A stretch of DNA of 22,418 nucleotides, from NCBI GenBank assembly GCA_946186155.1, contig CAMHLN010000016.1, positions 1 to 22,418 of the forward strand, given 5' to 3'. Below, piece by piece: positions 2,295 to 20,457 of the stretch. Position 1 is the first letter of the stretch, and every line of letters begins with the position of its first letter. The notes beneath the pieces were generated by a model, which was not told the origin of the DNA, searched no databases, and saw only the letters and a program-made list of their open reading frames with translations. Origin of the DNA: an uncultured Clostridia bacterium (GTDB lineage Bacteria > Bacillota > Clostridia > Oscillospirales > Acutalibacteraceae). Position numbers and translations under genes: made by a program.

Positions 2295-3494
2295 ATGGCA
2301 AAAGAGAAATTTGAACGTAACAAGCCCCATATAAACATTGGAACTATTGGTCACGTTGACCACGGTAAAACTACTTTAACTGCTGCTATAACCAAGTATT
2401 TAGGTTTAAAAGGACAGGCAGAATTTAAGGATTATTCCAACATTGATAATGCTCCAGAAGAACGTGAACGTGGTATTACTATTAATACTGCTCATGTTGA
2501 GTATGAGACTGATGCTAGACACTATGCTCACGTCGACTGCCCTGGTCACGCTGACTATGTTAAAAATATGATTACTGGTGCTGCACAAATGGACGGTGCT
2601 ATTCTTGTGGTTTCAGCTGCAGATGGTCCGATGCCGCAGACACGTGAACACATCTTGTTGTCTCGCCAGGTTGGAGTTCCTTATATTGTCGTTTTCATGA
2701 ACAAAATGGATCAAGTTGATGATCCTGAATTGGCAGATTTAGTCGAAATGGAGATTCGTGAATTATTGAACGAGTACGAATTCCCAGGAGATGATATTCC
2801 TATAATTAAAGGTTCAGCTTTTAAAGCTTTGGATTCAAAATCTGAGGATGTTTCTGCTCCTGAATATGCATGCATTGGAGAACTTATGGATGCAGTGGAT
2901 AAGTATATACCAACTCCTGAGAGGACTTCAGATCAGCCTTTCTTGATGCCTATAGAGGATATTTTCACTATAAGTGGACGTGGAACTGTTGCTACTGGTA
3001 GAGTTGAGCGTGGTAGATTGAATCTAAACGAAGAAGTTGAAATTGTTGGTATAAGAGAGTCGAGAAAGACTGTTGTTACTGGAATAGAGATGTTCAGAAA
3101 ACTTCTTGATTACGCTGAAGCTGGAGATAATATCGGTGTTTTGCTTCGTGGAATTGAAAGAAAAGATATTGAAAGAGGTCAAGTCGTTGCTAAACCTGGG
3201 ACCATACATCCTCACACAAAGTTTGAGGCACAGGTTTATGTTTTGAAAAAAGAAGAGGGAGGAAGACATACACCTTTCTTCACTAATTACAGACCTCAGT
3301 TTTATTTCAGGACCACTGATGTCACTGGTGTTATTAATCTTCCTGCGGGAACTGAAATGTGCATGCCTGGAGACAATGTTAGCATGAGTGTGGAGCTTAT
3401 TACTCCGATTGCAATTGAAGAAGGACTTCGTTTCGCTATTCGTGAAGGTGGTAGAACTGTTGGTTCTGGTGTTGTTACAAAAATCCAATCGTAG
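2295..3494 (+). CDS. tuf: Translation elongation factor Tu
   Basis: [33 protein letters not shown] and further DCPGHADY and NKMD motifs are present. An AGGAGGT RBS lies 7 nt upstream. Confidence 0.97.
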
Positions 3495-4508: not shown

Positions 4509-4585
4509 CGAGGTGTAGCTCAGTTTGGGAGAGCGCTTGGTTTGGGACCAAGAGGCCGCAGGTTCGATCCCTGTCACTTCGACCA
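4509..4585 (+). tRNA. tRNA-Pro (anticodon TGG), CCA encoded
   Basis: Acceptor CGAGGTG pairs with CACTTCG. The D-arm is AGCTCAGTTTGGGAGAGC. The anticodon loop TTTGGGA sits in a CTTGG/CCAAG stem. The T-arm is GGTTCGATCC. Confidence 0.85.
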
Positions 4586-4611
4586 CTCTGGAGTTTTTAT
4601 TGGAGTTAATT

Positions 4612-5541
4612 ATGATTGGATTATTTGTAGTGCTTTTCTTAATTATTGTCATCATTGCAGTCGCTGTTACTTTATTTTCTGGATATTACATTGTTCGTCA
4701 GCAAACAGTTTGCATAATAGAAAGACTCGGTAAGTTTCATAAAATTGCTGATCCGGGATTGCATTTTAGAATTCCTTGGGGAATTGATAGAATTGCAAAA
4801 TGTGTGAGCCTTAAAGTTCATCAAAATAATATCGAAATTGAAACGAAGACGAAAGATAATGTGTTTGTTGTTCTCGATTTGGCAGTTCAATTCAAAGTTG
4901 ATCCAAATAAAGTAACTGATGCTTATTATAAACTTTTGACTCCTACAGCTCAAATTGAATCTTATATTGAAGATGCAATAAGATCTACCTTTTGTAAATT
5001 CCCTCTTGATGAATCGTATGAAAAAAAGGATGACATAGCTCAAGATGTATTTGATACTGTCTCGAGTGAAATGTCAGAATATGGGTATGTGATTATAAAA
5101 ACTCTTATAACATCTATTGAGCCTGACAAACAAGTTAAAGAGGCGATGAATGCCATTAACGCTTCTCAAAGGCAGAAATGTGCAGCTCAAGAACTTGCGA
5201 ATGCTGATAAAATAAAAATAGTCACAGCTGCTGAAGCAGATGCAGAAAAAGATCGCCTACACGGTGAAGGAATAGCGAATCAACGTAAAGCTATCGTGGA
5301 TGGATTAAGTGAGTCATTTAATGAGTTGAAATCAAGTGGACTTAGTGAACAAGAAGTCATGAGTATACTTTTGACAGAGCAATATCTTGATGCTTTACAG
5401 ACTTTTGCAAAATATGGTAACCATGCAATATTTCTTCCTGCAGGAGCATCCGGGGCAGATGATATTAGAACTCAAATTTTGAGTGCTATGCATGCTGTGA
5501 AAAATCATGATGATAACAAAGAAATTGAAAATAGAGTCTAG
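4612..5541 (+). CDS. SPFH/band-7 (stomatin/prohibitin-like) membrane protein
   Basis: N-terminal TM helix MIGLFVVLFLIIVIIAVAVTLF, then an SPFH core (IIERLGKFHKIADPGLHFRIPWGIDRI...) and a C-terminal coiled-coil. GGAG RBS at 4602-4605. The ORF-track extension back to 4525 overlaps tRNA-Pro and was rejected. Confidence 0.85.
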   Translation: MIGLFVVLFLIIVIIAVAVTLFSGYYIVRQQTVCIIERLGKFHKIADPGLHFRIPWGIDRIAKCVSLKVHQNNIEIETKTKDNVFVVLDLAVQFKVDPNKVTDAYYKLLTPTAQIESYIEDAIRSTFCKFPLDESYEKKDDIAQDVFDTVSSEMSEYGYVIIKTLITSIEPDKQVKEAMNAINASQRQKCAAQELANADKIKIVTAAEADAEKDRLHGEGIANQRKAIVDGLSESFNELKSSGLSEQEVMSILLTEQYLDALQTFAKYGNHAIFLPAGASGADDIRTQILSAMHAVKNHDDNKEIENRV

Positions 5542-12389: not shown

Positions 12390-12418
12390 TTGTAATTATT
12401 GTCATAATGTGATATAAT
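12390..12418 (+). promoter_or_regulatory. Promoter of secreted-protein paralog 1: TTGTAA, 17 bp spacer, TGaTATAAT (extended -10)
   Basis: TTGTAA at 12390-12395 and TATAAT at 12413-12418, with the upstream TG at 12410-12411. Confidence 0.5.
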
Positions 12419-12424
12419 CCCGAC

Positions 12425-12467
12425 GCGCTTTAAGATATTGCGCTTTAAGATATTGCGCTTTAAGATT
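12425..12467. repeat. 15-bp tandem repeat GCGCTTTAAGATATT x 2.9 in 5' UTR
   Basis: Units lie at 12425-12439, 12440-12454 and a partial one at 12455-12467. They sit between the -10 and the RBS of paralog 1. Confidence 0.9.
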
Positions 12468-12486
12468 GTAAATTTTGGAGGTATTT

Positions 12487-13350
12487 ATGAACGAAACTAA
12501 AAAAAGATTGTTATCATGTTTATTACTTGCTATGGGGGGATTAAATTTAGGCACTGGAGTGTCTAATGCTCGATCAAAAGATGTTACCAATATGTCTAAT
12601 GTATCTTCCGAAGAAACTAAGAGAAATTCTAAAATTTCAAGTATTTTTAATTTAAGAAATGGTATAGATATTTTGGGATTATTGACTATAATTTATGGAG
12701 GTAAAAAGCTCCGGAATAATTCGCGAGACATAATTAAGAAAAATTCGGATATTATTAAGTATTACAAAGGACAAACTGATGATTTTAATTTATTGCAAGA
12801 TTTCCAACAGTTGTTTCGTTTTTGTTTGTGCCAGTCAAACGCTGGTTTTATTCATTTGAAAGATTTTACCGAAGAAGACTGCAAAAAGTACGACATCGTT
12901 TGTTTTAATAACGCGCAATACGACAAATCTGATGAATATTTGAGTTATTATTTTATTGTTGAATCGTCAGTAGATAAGAATGAAAAATTTAATTTTGCTT
13001 TTTGTACAAATAACAATTTTATGTCAGTTATAGCTCCTGCTAGTGCTGGTAATATTTCTGAGGATTATTCTGAAGAATATAATAATTTGAAACCATTTAA
13101 AGTAGCTGGGTATAGTATTTCGAAGGAAGTAAAACGAGAAAAATGTGCTAAAATTGTCGGGTTTAAATCATTGTTTCTAGGTATTAAACATCCAAATTTG
13201 TATTTTGGGGGCAAAGAACTGTTGGAAGAACACAAAAAAAAATTTGAAGATTATTATATAGTTTTTGAGATATATAGAGAGGTAGGTGAGGAGTACTACT
13301 CCTTGGATGGAATATACTGTAAAGTTTCATTGGTTAGACCAAAAAATTAA
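12487..13350 (+). CDS. Secreted protein, variable family member 1 (signal peptide, conserved RNG-IDILGLLTIIYGG N-module, Cys-containing divergent C-terminus)
   Basis: ATG 12487 follows GGAGGT. MNETKKRLLSCLLLAMGGLNLGTGVSNA|RS is a Sec signal peptide. The ORF-track 12475 start is a TTG extension. Confidence 0.8.
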   Translation: MNETKKRLLSCLLLAMGGLNLGTGVSNARSKDVTNMSNVSSEETKRNSKISSIFNLRNGIDILGLLTIIYGGKKLRNNSRDIIKKNSDIIKYYKGQTDDFNLLQDFQQLFRFCLCQSNAGFIHLKDFTEEDCKKYDIVCFNNAQYDKSDEYLSYYFIVESSVDKNEKFNFAFCTNNNFMSVIAPASAGNISEDYSEEYNNLKPFKVAGYSISKEVKREKCAKIVGFKSLFLGIKHPNLYFGGKELLEEHKKKFEDYYIVFEIYREVGEEYYSLDGIYCKVSLVRPKN

Positions 13351-13461
13351 ACAAATTAGTACCATTACTGGAATCAATGTAAGACAACGAATAATTTTAA
13401 CGAATTAGTTTGATTTTTAATTTGTGCTTAGTTGTAGTATTAAAGACTTTTGGAGGTATTT

Positions 13462-13518
13462 ATGAACAAAGCTAAAAAAAGATTGTTATCATGTTTATTA
13501 CTTGCTATGGGGGGTTAA
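13462..13518 (+). other. Orphaned start and signal-peptide fragment of paralog 2 (MNKAKKRLLSCLLLAMGG*), terminated by a 1-nt indel
   Basis: Its RBS and start context are identical to paralog 1. After the G6 run, paralog 1 reads GGGGGGATTAAAT and paralog 2 reads GGGGGGTTAAAT. The reading frame therefore hits TAA at 13516-13518. Confidence 0.75.
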
Positions 13519-14342
13519 ATTTAGGCACTGGAGTGTCTAATGCTTCCCCTAGGAGTAGTACTGAAAAATCCGAGAAAAATTCGAAAGTTTCAAGTATTTT
13601 TAATTTAAGAAATGGTATAGATATTTTGGGATTATTGACTATAATTTATGGAGGTAAAAAGCTTCGGGATAAAAATAAATCGTTGGAAGAATTGAATGAG
13701 GACAGATCGTATATCAAGGAGTTTTACGAAAATAAAGTTGATGATATTAACCTCTTTCAAAATTTTCAACATTTGTTTTATCTTTGTTTTAAAGGTGTAA
13801 TGTATTTTAGTGAATATAATTGGCAAGATTTAACAACAGAAGACTGCAAAAATTACGGAACCGTTTGTTTTGATAACAGTAAGTTAGAAGACGACAATTG
13901 TTATCGGAGTTGTTATTTTATTTCAAATAAACGTTTGGACAAGGAAAGTGATAGATTTTCATACATTGAAAAGCCAGAGTTATCGTCAGTTCTAGCTTCG
14001 GCTCCTAGTCAGTACGCCGGTGAATGTGGTAATTTAGAACCATTTACAATGGCTGGATATTCTGTTTGGTACAGTTTACAGAAAAACTTACGTGTTAAAA
14101 TCATCAAGTTTGAAGAACTTTTAAAAAAAGTTGAATATGATAACTTAAATAATTTGTGGAGTAAAGAAAAGTTTGATGAATATAAAGAGAAATTTAAAGA
14201 TTACTATATACTTTGTGAGGTGTATACAAATAGATATAAAAACCCCGAAATTAAAGATGAAGTTTTCTACAAATTTTCATTGGTTAAACCAATAGCACCA
14301 GCACCAATGCCAATACCAGAACCAGTACCGAAAAAAAATTAA
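13491..14342 (+). CDS. Secreted-protein family member 2, frameshifted at N-terminus (possible pseudogene or phase-variable)
   Basis: From the internal ATG at 13491 the protein reads MFITCYGGLNLGTGVSNA...SSIFNLRNGIDILGLLTIIYGGKKLR, 100% identical to paralog 1 across this module and then divergent. It has lost the charged n-region and start of the signal peptide. The C-terminus reads PIAPAPMPIPEPVPKKN. Confidence 0.6.
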   Translation: MFITCYGGLNLGTGVSNASPRSSTEKSEKNSKVSSIFNLRNGIDILGLLTIIYGGKKLRDKNKSLEELNEDRSYIKEFYENKVDDINLFQNFQHLFYLCFKGVMYFSEYNWQDLTTEDCKNYGTVCFDNSKLEDDNCYRSCYFISNKRLDKESDRFSYIEKPELSSVLASAPSQYAGECGNLEPFTMAGYSVWYSLQKNLRVKIIKFEELLKKVEYDNLNNLWSKEKFDEYKEKFKDYYILCEVYTNRYKNPEIKDEVFYKFSLVKPIAPAPMPIPEPVPKKN

Positions 14343-16909: not shown

Positions 16910-18232
16910 ATGAAAAATATGAAATCGAAAAAAGTTATTTTTGTTTGTAATAATTGTGGATACGATTCTGCCAAATGGAGTGGCAAATGTCCATCTTGTG
17001 GAGAATGGAATTCTATGTCAGAATTTTCCGAGAAAAAATTTTCTGGTAATAAAAAATGTTCGAATCCAGTTAGAATGTCGGAAATAAAATTTGACGATAA
17101 TATTAGAATGAGCACAGGAATATCCGAGCTTGACAGAACTCTTGGTGGCGGAATTGTTAAAGGATCATTTGTCTTGCTTAGTGGTTCTCCAGGAGTAGGA
17201 AAATCTACCATACTTCTTCAAATTTCTGAAAAATTTGAAAACATCTTATACGTTTCAGGAGAAGAATCTTATAGTCAAATTAAGATGCGGAGTGAAAGAT
17301 TGGGAATAAAAAATGACAATTTGTTTGTTCTTGCTGAAACTGATATTGATGTGATATCTAAGTGTATAGAAAATTTGAATCCCGGTTTGGTTATAGTAGA
17401 TTCTATCCAAACCATATCAAGTTCTGAAGTTAATTCTATTCCTGGTAGCGTTTCTCAAGTTAAAGAGTGCTCAAATATATTGCTTAAAATTTCAAAAGAA
17501 TTAAATATTGCTACGTTAGCAGTTAGTCACGTGAATAAGGAAGGAGCAATTGCAGGTCCTAAAGTTTTGGAACATATGGTAGATGTTGTTCTTTACTTCG
17601 AAGGAGAAAATAAAAATTCTTACAGAATTATAAGATGCATAAAAAATAGATTTGGCTCCACAAACGAGATAGGAGTTTTTGAAATGAAGACAAAAGGTCT
17701 AGAAGAAGTGAAAAACCCATCTTCAGTAATGTTGGAAAACAAATCTTTTGAATCATCAGGCTCATGTATTGCAGTTGTAACTGAAGGGAGTAGGCCATTT
17801 TTGGTTGAAATTCAAGCATTAGTTGTTCCGTCAAATTTGAGTATGCCCAGAAGAGTTTCAAATGGATACGATTATAATCGTTTGTGCATGATTTTAGCAG
17901 TTCTTGAAAAAAAATCAGGCTTCTATTTTTCAAATTCCGATGTTTACATAAATATTGTTGGCGGAATAAAAATCAATGACCCTTCAGCTGATTTGCCAAT
18001 AGCTATTTCTCTGGTTTCATCTATAAAAGATAAAATTGTCCCCATTGATTTAGCATCTTTTGGAGAAATTGGTCTTTCAGGAGAAATAAGAGGAGCATAT
18101 CGTTCGCAAGAAAGAATAGATGAAGCCAGAAGATTAGGATTATCAGAATTCATAATTCCTGACGTTAGTAATATTGAAGAAAAATCCGCCAAAAAAATTA
18201 AAAATATAAAAAGCATAAATTTTTGCATTTGA
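16910..18232 (+). CDS. radA: DNA repair protein RadA/Sms
   Basis: N-terminal C4 zinc finger CNNCGY...CPSCGEW, Walker A GSPGVGKST, the KNRFG motif and a Lon-protease-like C-terminal domain. Confidence 0.93.
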   Translation: MKNMKSKKVIFVCNNCGYDSAKWSGKCPSCGEWNSMSEFSEKKFSGNKKCSNPVRMSEIKFDDNIRMSTGISELDRTLGGGIVKGSFVLLSGSPGVGKSTILLQISEKFENILYVSGEESYSQIKMRSERLGIKNDNLFVLAETDIDVISKCIENLNPGLVIVDSIQTISSSEVNSIPGSVSQVKECSNILLKISKELNIATLAVSHVNKEGAIAGPKVLEHMVDVVLYFEGENKNSYRIIRCIKNRFGSTNEIGVFEMKTKGLEEVKNPSSVMLENKSFESSGSCIAVVTEGSRPFLVEIQALVVPSNLSMPRRVSNGYDYNRLCMILAVLEKKSGFYFSNSDVYINIVGGIKINDPSADLPIAISLVSSIKDKIVPIDLASFGEIGLSGEIRGAYRSQERIDEARRLGLSEFIIPDVSNIEEKSAKKIKNIKSINFCI

Positions 18233-18237
18233 CAAAA
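18165..18237. repeat. 73-bp direct repeat, copy A (native 3' end of radA including stop)
   Basis: Matches 19386-19458 at 69/73 positions. Confidence 0.9.
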
Positions 18238-18257
18238 ATGTTTAAAGAGTTTAAACT
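18229..18257 (+). promoter_or_regulatory. Putative promoter of paralog 3 built on radA stop region (TTGACA, 17 bp spacer, TAAACT)
   Basis: TTGACA at 18229-18234 overlaps the radA TGA. TAAACT lies at 18252-18257. Confidence 0.4.
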
Positions 18258-18280
18258 ATCCAAATAAGGGGTGATATTTT

Positions 18281-19246
18281 TTGAATAAGTCAAGATTATT
18301 ATCGTGCATAATGTTGTGTAGTACGGCGCTAGGGTTGGGTTTAGGAATAGGAACATCCGCCAAAACATCAAACGCCAAGACGTTAGATGACAAGGTGTCC
18401 CAAAGAAAGTATTCTAGAAATGGTTCAATGTTAAGTTTTCGTACGTTATTGGAATTTATTACCGTTTCTGGATTGTGCCTTAAAATAAAATCAATTTCTG
18501 ATGAAAACTCTGCAAAGGATCTTCGGGTTGGAGAGTTAGAGGAATTGAATAAGAGTTTAGATGAAAAAGTTAAACAATTAGATAGCAAAGTGTTTGGTGA
18601 TACATCCGATATTAATAAGCTTTCAATTACGAATGGCTTTTTAAAAAAAGACAACATTGAATTAAAGAATAAAATTGTTGTTTTAGAAAATAAGTTGGAA
18701 GCTAGTACGGTAGATAATAATATTATTAAAGATTTTGTTTCACGTTTTTTTTCGTTGGAATTAAAAGCAAAAGGTCAATGGGATTCAAGATGGCAGGAAT
18801 TGGAGAAAGATCAAGAATTTGTTTGCAAAAAATTTGGTGAACACTTTTGTTTCGGTGTCATTACAAGTGACTTAGATAGTTATGATTTTGAATCACAATC
18901 ATTGATTGAAAATTTAGGGAAAAATTTTAGCCTTAAATCGAAAGACGGATGGCAAACAAATTTTGATCGTGCATTAGAAATTTTGTGTCAAAAAAATTCT
19001 CAAATGTTTTTAGATGATAAGAGTAATGTGGTTCCAGATAGGAAGGCTTGTTGTTTTGGTGATAAGATTCGACGATTATGTCGAACATTGTATAAAACTT
19101 TTGAAAGTTCATCTGGTGAGAAATTTACAGTTTCTTGTAGTCTGTATGCTAAAACAGATAATTGGAATCGTTTGTGCTCAGTTGTTGTGATTTATGCTAT
19201 TGGTGACGTGGTTGATAAGAATCAGCCGGCTCCTGTTTTGGTTTAA
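18281..19246 (+). CDS. Secreted protein, variable family member 3 (TTG start; signal peptide MNKSRLLSC...TSNA; RNG module; coiled-coil; Cys-rich C-terminus)
   Basis: TTG 18281 has GGGGTGA 6 nt upstream. The N-terminal KxRLLSC...GLG.G.S..SNA and SRNGSMLSFRTLLEFITVSG parallel paralogs 1 and 2 (LRNGIDILGLLTIIYGG). Confidence 0.7.
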   Translation: MNKSRLLSCIMLCSTALGLGLGIGTSAKTSNAKTLDDKVSQRKYSRNGSMLSFRTLLEFITVSGLCLKIKSISDENSAKDLRVGELEELNKSLDEKVKQLDSKVFGDTSDINKLSITNGFLKKDNIELKNKIVVLENKLEASTVDNNIIKDFVSRFFSLELKAKGQWDSRWQELEKDQEFVCKKFGEHFCFGVITSDLDSYDFESQSLIENLGKNFSLKSKDGWQTNFDRALEILCQKNSQMFLDDKSNVVPDRKACCFGDKIRRLCRTLYKTFESSSGEKFTVSCSLYAKTDNWNRLCSVVVIYAIGDVVDKNQPAPVLV

Positions 19247-19385
19247 TTGTTGTGTGTTAAATTATAAAGAAAAATTTCTAGTTTTATGGTTCTAAACGGG
19301 GGTTTGGCGCTTTTTTGCTGGTGTCAACAGAGGTGTATTAATTGCAAAAAATGAAAAAGATAGTAAAATTTTATAATTCTTGATA

Positions 19386-19458
19386 TTAGCAACATTGAAG
19401 AAAAATTTGCCAAAAAAATTAAAAATATAAAAAGCATAAATTTTTGCATTTGACAAAA
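19386..19458. repeat. 73-bp direct repeat, copy B (duplicated radA 3' end, downstream of inserted gene)
   Basis: CATTGAAGAAAAATTTGCCAAAAAAATTAAAAATATAAAAAGCATAAATTTTTGCATTTGACAAAA matches 18165-18237 with 4 mismatches. Confidence 0.9.
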
Positions 19459-19680
19459 TTATTTCTAAATTTAAAAAAAAATTTATGTTACTTGGAGTTA
19501 TGGTTGTAAGGCATCGTTTTTTGTAAATTTACTTTGATTTTTTTGACAAATTTGCTTGCAATTTTTGTTTTAATTTGTAAAAATAGTGCTATTTTGTAGA
19601 AGAGGGGTGGTTGTCAAAGAATATTAGTTTTCTGCGGGCTTTTTATCTGAATTTTATTTTTATTTTGAGAGGTATTTATT

Positions 19681-20457
19681 ATGAGTTTCAAATCTGTTAA
19701 AAAAATTGTTAGCAAATTCGTGTTGGCTATGTTACTTTCATCATCATTTTCACTGAATGGCGATGCCATAGGCAAAGTACAGGAAATGGTAATGAAAGAT
19801 TGGCTTGAACATCAGGGGCTGAATGTCGAAGAAGGAATGAAAAAACTGCAGTACGCTGCTAAAGATGGTACCCCTTGCTATTTGGTTCCTATATATGAAA
19901 ATGACGAGGTTGAAAAGTTTATCGTTGATTTGTATAGTAATCAGGCTTATAAAGATTATATGTATAATTGGTTTGGTGGCAAGGGAATGAGTACCCAACA
20001 AAAAGCTAGATCCTCTAAGTTTGATGTGCCATATCTTAACATGCACAATTCCAAAGATCCCAGAGTGAATGCTCATGAGTATTTTGATGGTTATTTATCT
20101 AGGTCTGTAAACTTCGTAATTTTCTATGGAGATTTTTTAGCAGGACAGCTTTCGATGGGCCCGATGAGAAATTTGGGAGTTCCAAGTGAAGTTGCTGTCG
20201 TGATTCACAAAAAATACAGTGGAAAGGGAATATTCTCTGGGCTTTCTCAAATAGATATGGGATTTTTCATGAACGCTTATAAAAATGGTACTAAGAATGC
20301 AAGCCGAAATTTAAGCAGAATATACACCACACCTTCTAAGCCTCAAGCAACTAGTTTCATGGGTAGAGTGTTATCTGAAAAGTTTGGATTTTATTATGAC
20401 GAAAAATTGACTTCACAGAAAAAAGATGGTTGCAGTTACTACTATAAAGTTATTTAA
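19681..20457 (+). CDS. Hypothetical secreted protein (signal peptide; no recognised family)
   Basis: The N-terminus MSFKSVKKIVSKFVLAMLLSSSFSLNG reads as a signal peptide. GAGAGGT RBS. Its stop overlaps the stop of the convergent gene. Confidence 0.6.
   Translation: MSFKSVKKIVSKFVLAMLLSSSFSLNGDAIGKVQEMVMKDWLEHQGLNVEEGMKKLQYAAKDGTPCYLVPIYENDEVEKFIVDLYSNQAYKDYMYNWFGGKGMSTQQKARSSKFDVPYLNMHNSKDPRVNAHEYFDGYLSRSVNFVIFYGDFLAGQLSMGPMRNLGVPSEVAVVIHKKYSGKGIFSGLSQIDMGFFMNAYKNGTKNASRNLSRIYTTPSKPQATSFMGRVLSEKFGFYYDEKLTSQKKDGCSYYYKVI

What the first reader, a model, noticed from the sequence alone, without database searches (positions are those of the whole stretch)
18165..19458. Family member 3 sits in a ~1.15-kb insertion bracketed by 73-bp direct repeats of the radA 3' end
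The last 68 nt of radA plus 5 nt of downstream sequence (18165-18237) recur at 19386-19458 with 4 mismatches, on the far side of the third secreted-protein gene. A duplicated flank this long is not a transposase-type target-site duplication. It looks instead like the footprint of integration by recombination, for example Campbell-type insertion of a circular cassette carrying a radA-tail homology arm, or a duplicative transfer between family loci. Copy A also supplies the TTGACA -35 element that overlaps the radA stop, so the inserted gene is driven by a promoter made of radA sequence. No integrase or transposase is nearby.
Basis: seen in the sequence. Interest (0 to 1): 0.75.

Follow-up and report, generated by a model that had tools for sequence, protein, structure and literature searches.

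The report
Strain-variable gene flanked by radA-tail repeats
A single orphan secreted-protein gene just after the DNA-repair gene radA sits between two ~95-base copies of radA's end; some strains of this uncultured rumen bacterium lack it exactly as predicted, but it looks like an old recombination scar, not a self-mobile element.

Summary
Window 18165-18237 recurs at 19386-19458 with 4 mismatches. The repeat is slightly longer than reported: 18149-18243 vs 19370-19464, 95 nt at 89.5% identity, E=2e-30, against a simulated null maximum of 36.5 bits. Copy B is a 5'-truncated, non-coding radA tail.

Four contigs from four samples of the same species carry radA followed directly by the sequence that follows copy B, with no gene 3. 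About 14 other loci carry both repeats plus gene 3.

There is no sign of autonomous mobility:
- No recombinase lies within ±6 kb.
- No hairpin or inverted repeats are present.
- Nothing matches in the phage, plasmid or viral collections.
- Gene 3 homologues exist only at this locus in this species.

The empty haplotype nests among occupied ones on both flanks, which favours secondary deletion by A×B recombination. Copies A and B show gene conversion. Other strains carry further genes after copy B: a secreted Macro-domain gene, or a paralogue of the 258-aa gene. In the Macro-bearing strain, copy B completes a TTGACA-17-TAAAAT promoter.

Best reading: an old one-off duplicative insertion into a hypervariable secreted-protein hotspot, since reshaped by homologous recombination. 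It is a known kind of variation and of modest interest.

The parts
16910..18232 (+). radA (DNA repair protein RadA/Sms), intact; its last 84 nt form most of repeat copy A
   Evidence: Pfam hits to Zn-ribbon, KaiC/AAA_25 and Lon_C/ChlI. It is 97-99% identical to nine conspecific proteins.
18149..18243 (+). Repeat copy A: the radA 3' end (to 18232) plus 11 nt downstream
   Evidence: It is 97% conserved between strains, like the rest of radA.
18229..18257 (+). Promoter-like site TTGACA-17-TAAACT. The -35 overlaps the radA stop codon. A ribosome-binding site AAGGGGTG lies at 18266-18273.
   Evidence: 10 of 12, the best site in 17900-19800. Conserved in all occupied strains. Function is not tested, and the overall count of promoter-like hits is not above shuffles.
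18281..19246 (+). Gene 3: a 321-aa orphan protein with an N-terminal signal-peptide-like leader. Species-restricted and fast-evolving.
   Evidence: Only 4 homologous clusters, all conspecific, at 69-93% aa identity, against 97-99% for radA. No Pfam domain above threshold. AlphaFold model at pLDDT 32. Frameshifted in L029-L031.
19247..19369 (+). Trailing non-coding DNA of the inserted unit (IGR1), with no significant RNA structure
   Evidence: 88% identity between strains. Fold z-score 0.79. No Rfam match.
19370..19464 (+). Repeat copy B: a 5'-truncated, non-coding radA tail. It evolves at intergenic rates and is patched by gene conversion.
   Evidence: It is 85-88% identical between strains. 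Difference matrix: L018_B differs from its own A copy at 7 of 100 positions, but from the other B copies at 16-24.
19465..19680 (+). Native DNA downstream of radA: a spacer plus the 258-aa gene's own promoter-like region and ~110-nt leader. In empty-site strains this follows radA directly.
   Evidence: In L030 the first ~75 nt are replaced by a ~1-kb Macro-domain gene segment.
19681..20457 (+). 258-aa signal-peptide protein gene (g258), present in all strains, hypervariable, unrelated to gene 3

Best explanation
Gene 3 with its trailing 123 nt and one radA-tail copy is a 1,221-bp presence/absence segment in a strain-variable hotspot between radA and a convergent polysaccharide (Wzy) cluster.

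Inferred origin: one old recombination event placed [radA tail + promoter + gene 3 + IGR1] next to the resident radA tail. Two routes fit. One is a homologous crossover in radA plus a single illegitimate join ~85-95 nt before the radA stop (homology-facilitated illegitimate recombination). The other, equivalent in outcome, is a Campbell-type single crossover of a circularised fragment. Either keeps radA intact and leaves the displaced resident tail as copy B.

Shown since then:
- Copy B has decayed as non-coding DNA.
- Copies A and B have exchanged sequence by gene conversion.
- One lineage lacks the segment precisely, most likely through an A×B crossover.
- Other lineages have acquired further genes just after copy B.

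The radA end supplies the -35 hexamer for whichever gene directly follows a tail copy (sequence-level inference only). Nothing indicates a dedicated recombinase or ongoing self-mobility.
For: (1) The repeat is real and is radA-derived.

(2) Empty sites exist. L024, L025, L026 and L027, from four samples and assemblies, have a radA stop, then 230 nt, then g258. They carry one tail followed by the B-type flank and give no gene 3 hit by tblastn.

(3) Occupied sites share one junction and a homologous IGR1 in three diverged haplogroups: the window/L029-31 type, the L011 type (19 contigs carry that radA allele) and L018.

(4) Copy B evolves like the neighbouring intergenic DNA, at 0.85-0.88 against 0.97 for copy A. 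It carries a 1-nt deletion in the L011 type. In the window, the eight differences between 18151 and 18198 are all transitions, six of them GC to AT.

(5) Gene conversion is visible. L018_B shares the L018_A-specific variants TCAAA, TTTGTA and GAT. It differs from its own A copy at 7 of 100 positions but from the other B copies at 16-24. L018_A carries three B-type states.

(6) The empty haplotype nests among occupied ones on both flanks. On SDF+radA it is sister to L018 (96.5% bootstrap, outgroup L020). On g258 it is closest to the window (94.6% nt).

(7) There is no recombinase, no inverted repeats, no hairpin and no match to any mobile-element collection. Gene 3 occurs only at this locus.

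(8) The whole radA-wzy gap is a hotspot. Strains carry 1, 2 or 3 secreted-protein genes there, and the sister species have unrelated genes right after radA.

(9) A tail copy followed directly by a gene completes a promoter: A gives TTGACA-17-TAAACT and L030_B gives TTGACA-17-TAAAAT at 11/12. No such site appears where no gene follows, in window copy B or the empty site.
Against: - The founding event cannot be reconstructed. No donor arrangement was found, and no haplotype shows gene 3 without copy B.
- The direction of the polymorphism rests on flank trees in a clearly recombining population, with a distant outgroup (72% aa). A root on the empty branch would make one gain equally parsimonious.
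- In the window, the right ~55 nt of copy B is identical to copy A while the left 45 nt is ~80% identical. I attribute this to a recent conversion tract. An identity 'core' of a site-specific att site, or promoter constraint, would look similar.
- All data are metagenome assemblies. One scaffold (L029) has an N-gap inside the radA tail, showing that the repeat troubles assemblers.
- Promoter activity is untested.
Confidence: 0.6

Rival explanations
1. The segment is the remnant or satellite of a site-specific integrative element. Copies A and B would be attL and attR of an element that targeted the radA 3' end and carried a replacement tail, as e14 and phage 21 do at icd. The element has either decayed to one cargo gene or is mobilised in trans by an integrase elsewhere (CIME-like).
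For: - Long imperfect direct repeats made of a housekeeping gene's 3' end, with the gene kept intact, are the classic footprint of such elements (e14: icd / icdC, PMC13626634; CIME definition, PMC5704250).
- An exact empty site exists.
- A block of ~55 nt identical between A and B at the very end of radA in the window could be a core.
- A second gene (Macro) sits right after copy B in L030, resembling accretion at attR.
Against: - No integrase or integrase remnant is present. Gene 3 fills 966 of the 1,126 nt between the repeat copies (18244-19369).
- No third tail copy follows the Macro gene.
- The A-B identity pattern differs between strains, as expected from conversion rather than a fixed core.
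- The arrangement is vertically inherited across about 4% radA divergence.
- Nothing similar was found in 50,697 phage records, 72,556 plasmid records or IMG/VR.
- No literature on radA as an att target turned up.
Confidence: 0.15
2. A tandem duplication of [radA tail + promoter + downstream gene] arose by unequal crossing-over. One copy's coding region then diverged or was replaced, so that gene 3 and the gene after copy B were once paralogues.
For: - Tandem duplication is active in this region. L018 has a tandem paralogue of g258, and the window has two tandem family members at 12475-14342 where other strains have one.
- In L030 the A/B homology runs through the -10 region, as a duplicated promoter unit would.
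Against: - Gene 3 has no detectable similarity to g258.
- tblastn with gene 3 hits nothing in the Macro segment, and the reverse search also finds nothing.
- Homology between the two units stops within ~10-25 nt after the radA stop.
- This model needs a complete gene replacement on top of the duplication.
Confidence: 0.1
3. The polymorphism is an assembly artefact. The four empty-site contigs skipped gene 3 by collapsing repeats A and B, so every strain is actually occupied and the arrangement is simply fixed.
For: - All the data are short-read metagenome assemblies.
- Several contigs end at repeat A (L016, L017, L031), and L029 has an N-gap there.
- Three of the four empty contigs come from related cattle-rumen projects.
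Against: - Four assemblies made with different pipelines (scaffold, k127, k141) give the same junction.
- In known strains A and B share at most ~55 nt of exact identity, which is shorter than the final k-mers.
- The empty haplotype has its own radA allele (43-54 differences in 1,220 nt) and its own spacer and g258 sequence. It is therefore not a chimera of any occupied haplotype seen.
- Occupied contigs assemble correctly in the same projects (L015, L028).
Confidence: 0.07

Closest known systems
Small variable segments flanked by direct repeats ('r-loci'; Touzain et al. 2010, PMC2884548)
   Same: A segment under 4 kb lies between conserved backbone genes, is flanked by direct repeats, and is precisely absent in some genomes of the species. 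Deletion between the repeats is the proposed mechanism.
   Different: In that survey 66-94% of such repeats were under 30 bp. Here the repeat is ~95 bp, above the RecA homology threshold quoted there. It is a copy of a gene's 3' end, and it shows gene conversion between copies.
e14 / phage 21 integration in E. coli icd, leaving the icdC C-terminal pseudogene (PMC13626634, citing Hill et al. 1989)
   Same: An intact housekeeping gene whose 3' end is duplicated, imperfectly, as a pseudogene fragment on the far side of the insert. Loss of the insert recombines the gene with the displaced tail.
   Different: e14 is a 15-kb prophage with its own site-specific recombinase and SOS-induced excision. 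Here the insert is one 966-nt ORF with no recombinase and no evidence of induced excision.
CIMEs (cis-mobilizable elements: decayed ICE/IME that keep attL and attR; PMC5704250)
   Same: [quoted passage not shown] Another gene can accrete at the distal repeat.
   Different: A CIME is defined relative to a cognate ICE or IME that uses the same att site. None was found here, and there are no remnants of transfer or recombination genes.
Homology-facilitated illegitimate recombination during natural transformation (de Vries & Wackernagel 2002; Prudhomme et al. 2002; cited in PMC2884548)
   Same: One homologous anchor (radA) plus one illegitimate joint would generate exactly this structure: intact gene, new DNA, and a displaced truncated tail.
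   Different: This mechanism is inferred only. Competence of this uncultured organism is unknown, and no donor arrangement was identified.
Integron gene cassettes
   Same: Single-ORF units at a fixed chromosomal position, with a variable number of units between strains.
   Different: There is no attC-like hairpin, no IntI, and the repeats carry a promoter element rather than a recombination site. The second unit is not followed by another repeat.

Membership tests
Small variable segment flanked by direct repeats (deletion-prone r-locus) | Direct repeats at both boundaries of the variable segment | tested here: met
   18149-18243 / 19370-19464, 95 nt at 89.5%, E=2e-30
Small variable segment flanked by direct repeats (deletion-prone r-locus) | At least one genome of the species with the segment absent and a single repeat copy | tested here: met
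   L024-L027 have one radA tail followed by the B-type flank
Site-specific integrative element (prophage / ICE / IME) | Integrase or recombinase gene inside the repeat-bounded segment | tested here: not met
   Gene 3 is the only ORF, with no Pfam recombinase domain. None lies within ±6 kb in 12 conspecific loci.
Site-specific integrative element (prophage / ICE / IME) | att direct repeats at the 3' end of a conserved target gene, with the gene left intact | tested here: met
   radA is full length and copy B is a displaced tail
Site-specific integrative element (prophage / ICE / IME) | Excised circular form, or attP junction | not testable with these tools
   Needs raw reads or long reads. No junction contig is among the loci fetched.
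CIME (decayed att-flanked element mobilised in cis or trans) | A cognate functional element that uses the same att site | tested here: inconclusive
   No hit for the tail 45-mer in IMG/VR and none for the segment in phages or plasmids. The rest of this species' genome could not be scanned.
Integron cassette | attC imperfect inverted repeat or hairpin at the cassette end, plus IntI | tested here: not met
   Fold of 19235-19480 gives z=0.79 against shuffles. No inverted repeat in the region. No integrase.
IS / transposon insertion | Transposase, terminal inverted repeats and a short (2-15 bp) target duplication | tested here: not met
   No transposase, no terminal inverted repeats, and a duplication of ~95 bp.
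Tandem duplication unit | The DNA after each repeat copy is paralogous | tested here: not met
   Gene 3 vs g258 shows no similarity. Gene 3 and Macro do not cross-hit.
Window's secreted-protein family (members at 12475-13350 and 13491-14342) | Homology over the mature protein, not only the leader | tested here: not met
   Only residues 3-65 align with member 1 (33% identity, E=6e-6 pairwise). The match to member 2 is not significant.

The most novel reading that the evidence does not exclude
The radA tail plus promoter is a reusable docking module. Single-gene, promoter-equipped secreted-protein cassettes (gene 3, the Macro-domain gene) would be added to or removed from an array at the radA 3' end by recombination at tail copies, using either an unrecognised trans-acting recombinase or a regular homologous-recombination route. 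The result would be strains with 0, 1 or 2 cassettes, in effect an integron-like effector array whose repeats double as promoters.
Probability: 0.1. Interest if true: 0.6.

Novelty: new member of a known kind. Interest (0 to 1): 0.3.

Why it matters
This is a clean natural example of how a gene's own 3' end, once duplicated by a single recombination accident, becomes a substrate for later change. The repeats have supported gene conversion and precise deletion, and the distal copy marks the spot where further genes were added. The same sequence also donates a -35 element to whatever gene lands behind it. The locus marks the radA-wzy gap as a strain-level hotspot for fast-evolving secreted proteins in an uncultured rumen Clostridia lineage, which may be useful as a strain marker. 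It does not reveal a new mobile-element type or mechanism.

Tried and rejected
- Genome (GTDB) and JGI metagenome scans with radA found only relatives at or below 67% identity with different neighbours, so they were no use as empty-site tests.
- Exact-protein look-ups of the window's radA and gene 3 found nothing. Close strains came only through the protein search.
- Sister species (72-73% radA) have infC-rplT-dprA, or an unrelated 236-aa secreted protein, right after radA. They therefore cannot polarise the event.
- I tested whether the window's spacer after copy B is a deletion remnant of the Macro gene. The gapped alignment scored no better than shuffles, so this was rejected.
- A Macro homologue in a relative lies next to glmS, not radA.
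- The AlphaFold2 model of gene 3 reached only pLDDT 32, so no fold search was run.
- An Rfam scan of 18000-19800 gave only chance-level hits.
- An RNA fold of IGR1 plus copy B was not better than shuffles.
- A literature search for radA as an integration target returned only irrelevant matches.
- No duplicated folE tail was found at the other family locus.
Full report
**1. The observation**

18165-18237 (the last 68 nt of radA plus 5 nt) recurs at 19386-19458 with four mismatches. Tools extend the pair slightly:
- The repeat finder gives 118 nt at 83% with 1,221-nt spacing.
- BLAST gives 18149-18243 vs 19370-19464, 95 nt at 89.5%, 127 bits, E=2e-30.
- The best off-diagonal hit in 40 simulated AT-rich windows was 36.5 bits.

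Copy A is part of an intact radA (Pfam; 97-99% identical to nine conspecific proteins). In the radA frame, copy B reads NFIILDISNIEEKFAKKIKNIKSINFCI* behind two stop codons. It is a 5'-truncated, non-coding radA tail. The window has no integrase or transposase.

**2. The organism and its relatives**

The nearest species-level genomes are uncultured rumen Clostridia MAGs with only ~65% RadA identity and different neighbours. JGI metagenomes gave nothing closer.

The large protein collection did hold nine RadA variants at 97-99% identity.

**3. Occupied and empty sites**

Most conspecific loci have the same order as the window: SDF transporter, radA, repeat A, gene 3, repeat B, a 258-aa signal-peptide gene (g258), then a convergent Wzy/DegT cluster. 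These are:
- L010-L015, L019 and L028 (the 'L011 type'; 19 contigs carry that radA allele);
- L018;
- L029-L031, which are 96-97% identical to the window.

Four contigs from four samples (L024-L027) are different. There, radA is followed after 230 nt by g258. They carry a single tail, no gene 3 (tblastn), and the sequence that follows the tail is the B-type flank.

I consider mis-assembly unlikely for these reasons:
- Four pipelines agree on the junction.
- In known strains A and B share at most ~55 nt of exact identity.
- The empty haplotype has its own radA, spacer and g258 alleles.

Mis-assembly is not excluded, though. The repeat does trouble assemblers: some contigs end at it, and L029 has an N-gap in it.

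**4. Age and direction**

The occupied haplogroups differ by 2.6-4.5% in radA. They share the same IGR1 and, for the window and L011 types, the same derived substitutions in the left part of copy B. So the duplication predates their divergence.

Identity between the window and L011 falls into two classes:

| Region | Identity |
|---|---|
| radA | 0.96 |
| repeat A | 0.97 |
| wzy | 0.96 |
| gene 3 | 0.895 |
| IGR1 | 0.88 |
| repeat B | 0.88 |
| spacer (IGR2) | 0.81 |
| g258 | 0.82 |

Copy B therefore drifts like intergenic DNA inside a hypervariable island.

An NJ tree of SDF plus radA, rooted with the sister species, puts the empty haplotype as sister to occupied L018 (96.5% bootstrap), with the window basal. 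On the other flank, g258 of the empty haplotype is closest to the window (94.6%). Being nested among occupied haplotypes on both sides favours secondary loss, that is, a crossover between A and B. The caveat is that this population clearly recombines and the outgroup is distant.

**5. Recombination between the copies**

Difference counts over 100 aligned positions:

| Pair | Differences |
|---|---|
| window A vs window B | 14 |
| L011 A vs L011 B | 25 |
| L018 A vs L018 B | 7 |
| L018 B vs other B copies | 16-24 |

L018_B shares the L018_A-specific variants TCAAA, TTTGTA and GAT. Conversely, L018_A carries three B-type states that change RadA from ...SEFI... to ...SKFV....

In the window, the eight differences between 18151 and 18198 are all transitions, six of them GC to AT. 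The distal ~55 nt is identical to copy A. I read this as decay on the left and a recent conversion tract on the right. A fixed site-specific core is less likely, because the pattern differs between strains.

**6. A variable array, and the promoter idea**

The gap between radA and wzy holds different gene sets in different strains:
- g258 alone (the empty haplotype);
- gene 3 + g258 (the window and the L011 type);
- gene 3 + a 314-aa tandem paralogue of g258 + g258 (L018);
- gene 3 (frameshifted) + a signal-peptide Macro-domain gene + g258 (L029-L031).

The Macro segment replaces ~75 nt immediately after copy B. No third tail copy follows it.

In L030 the homology to copy A runs on through the -10 region. 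Copy B plus its flank forms TTGACA-17-TAAAAT (11/12), the best site in that region. This mirrors TTGACA-17-TAAACT in front of gene 3 (10/12). Where no gene follows a tail directly, in window copy B and in the empty site, no such site is found.

It remains a consensus match in AT-rich DNA, where hit counts do not exceed shuffles.

**7. What gene 3 is**

- It has homologues only in this species and only at this locus: four clusters at 69-93% identity.
- It shares only a ~63-aa leader with the 'family' genes at 12475-14342.
- It has nothing in common with g258.
- It has no Pfam domain above threshold.
- It could not be modelled (pLDDT 32).

It is an orphan, fast-evolving, probably secreted protein, and it is already a pseudogene in the haplotype closest to the window.

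**8. Mechanism**

Shown:
- a repeat-bounded presence/absence polymorphism;
- decay of copy B;
- A/B gene conversion;
- further gene turnover beside copy B.

Inferred: a single founding event combined a homologous exchange in radA with one illegitimate joint ~85-95 nt upstream of the radA stop. This is homology-facilitated illegitimate recombination, or equivalently a Campbell-type insertion of a circularised fragment. It was followed by vertical inheritance and RecA-type recombination between the repeats.

Rivals:
- A decayed or trans-mobilised site-specific element (e14/icdC-like or CIME-like). It fits the footprint but lacks any recombinase, cognate element or database match.
- A tandem duplication with gene replacement. 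The units are not paralogous.
- An assembly artefact, discussed in section 3.

**9. Comparison and verdict**

The locus belongs to the known class of small variable segments flanked by direct repeats that are precisely absent in some genomes (PMC2884548). Its repeat is unusually long and gene-derived.

It resembles the icd/icdC arrangement around e14 in form, but it fails the defining test for an integrative element because it has no recombinase. It is real, tidy and mechanistically instructive, but ordinary: a new member of a known kind, interest about 0.3.

The more exciting reading is a promoter-bearing repeat that serves as a docking site for an integron-like array of effector cassettes. 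It is not excluded, but nothing beyond the two-unit array in L030 supports it (probability about 0.1).

Noticed in passing
window 13462-13518 (compare 12487-12545): Family member 2 has the same start as member 1 but lacks one base after the G6 run (GGGGGGTTA vs GGGGGGATTA). The canonical ATG at 13462 therefore runs into TAA at 13516. The long ORF restarts at ATG 13491 without the charged N-terminus of the signal peptide, so this is probably a pseudogene or a 5'-truncated copy.
   Followed up: partly
window 12425-12467: Three tandem copies of GCGCTTTAAGATATT (the last one shortened) lie in the leader of family member 1, just downstream of a TGnTATAAT-like -10 at 12411-12418. Their function is unknown.
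   Followed up: no
window 12475-14342 vs L010-L019 (~2520-3400): The folE-spoVAD gap holds two tandem family genes in the window but one in other strains (286 aa; 327 aa in L018). These are only 33-48% identical in protein sequence between strains, so this is a second hypervariable secreted-protein hotspot.
   Followed up: partly
L030 1087-2052; L029 2746-3683; L031 1353-1703: The strains closest to the window carry an extra gene for a signal-peptide plus Macro-domain (ADP-ribose-binding or hydrolase) protein right after repeat B. Homologues at 46-52% identity occur in other rumen Clostridia MAGs at unrelated loci (next to glmS in L032). In the same strains gene 3 is frameshifted near codon 95-100, and in L029 the Macro gene is frameshifted too.
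   Followed up: partly
L018 8748-9692: A 314-aa tandem paralogue of g258 (46% aa identity, ~70% nt) sits between repeat B and g258, with its own copy of the g258 promoter and leader region.
   Followed up: partly
L020 11600-12592 and 13380-13961: The sister species (72% RadA) encodes two proteins with RING-finger domains (PF13639 and relatives). These are eukaryote-like ubiquitin-ligase domains, unusual in Clostridia, and hint at a host- or protist-associated lifestyle for this lineage.
   Followed up: no
window 19540-19680 (also L011, L018, L024, L030): g258 is preceded in all strains by a conserved TTTTTTTGACAAATTTGCTTGCAATTTTTG...TGTAAAAAT promoter-like block and a conserved ~110-nt leader (GAGGTGGTGGTTG...). 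No Rfam family matched.
   Followed up: partly
window 4509-4585 / 4525-5541: The listed 338-aa ORF (band-7/SPFH-like by its sequence) begins inside tRNA-Pro. Its real start is probably further downstream, so this looks like an ORF-listing artefact rather than a gene overlap.
   Followed up: no
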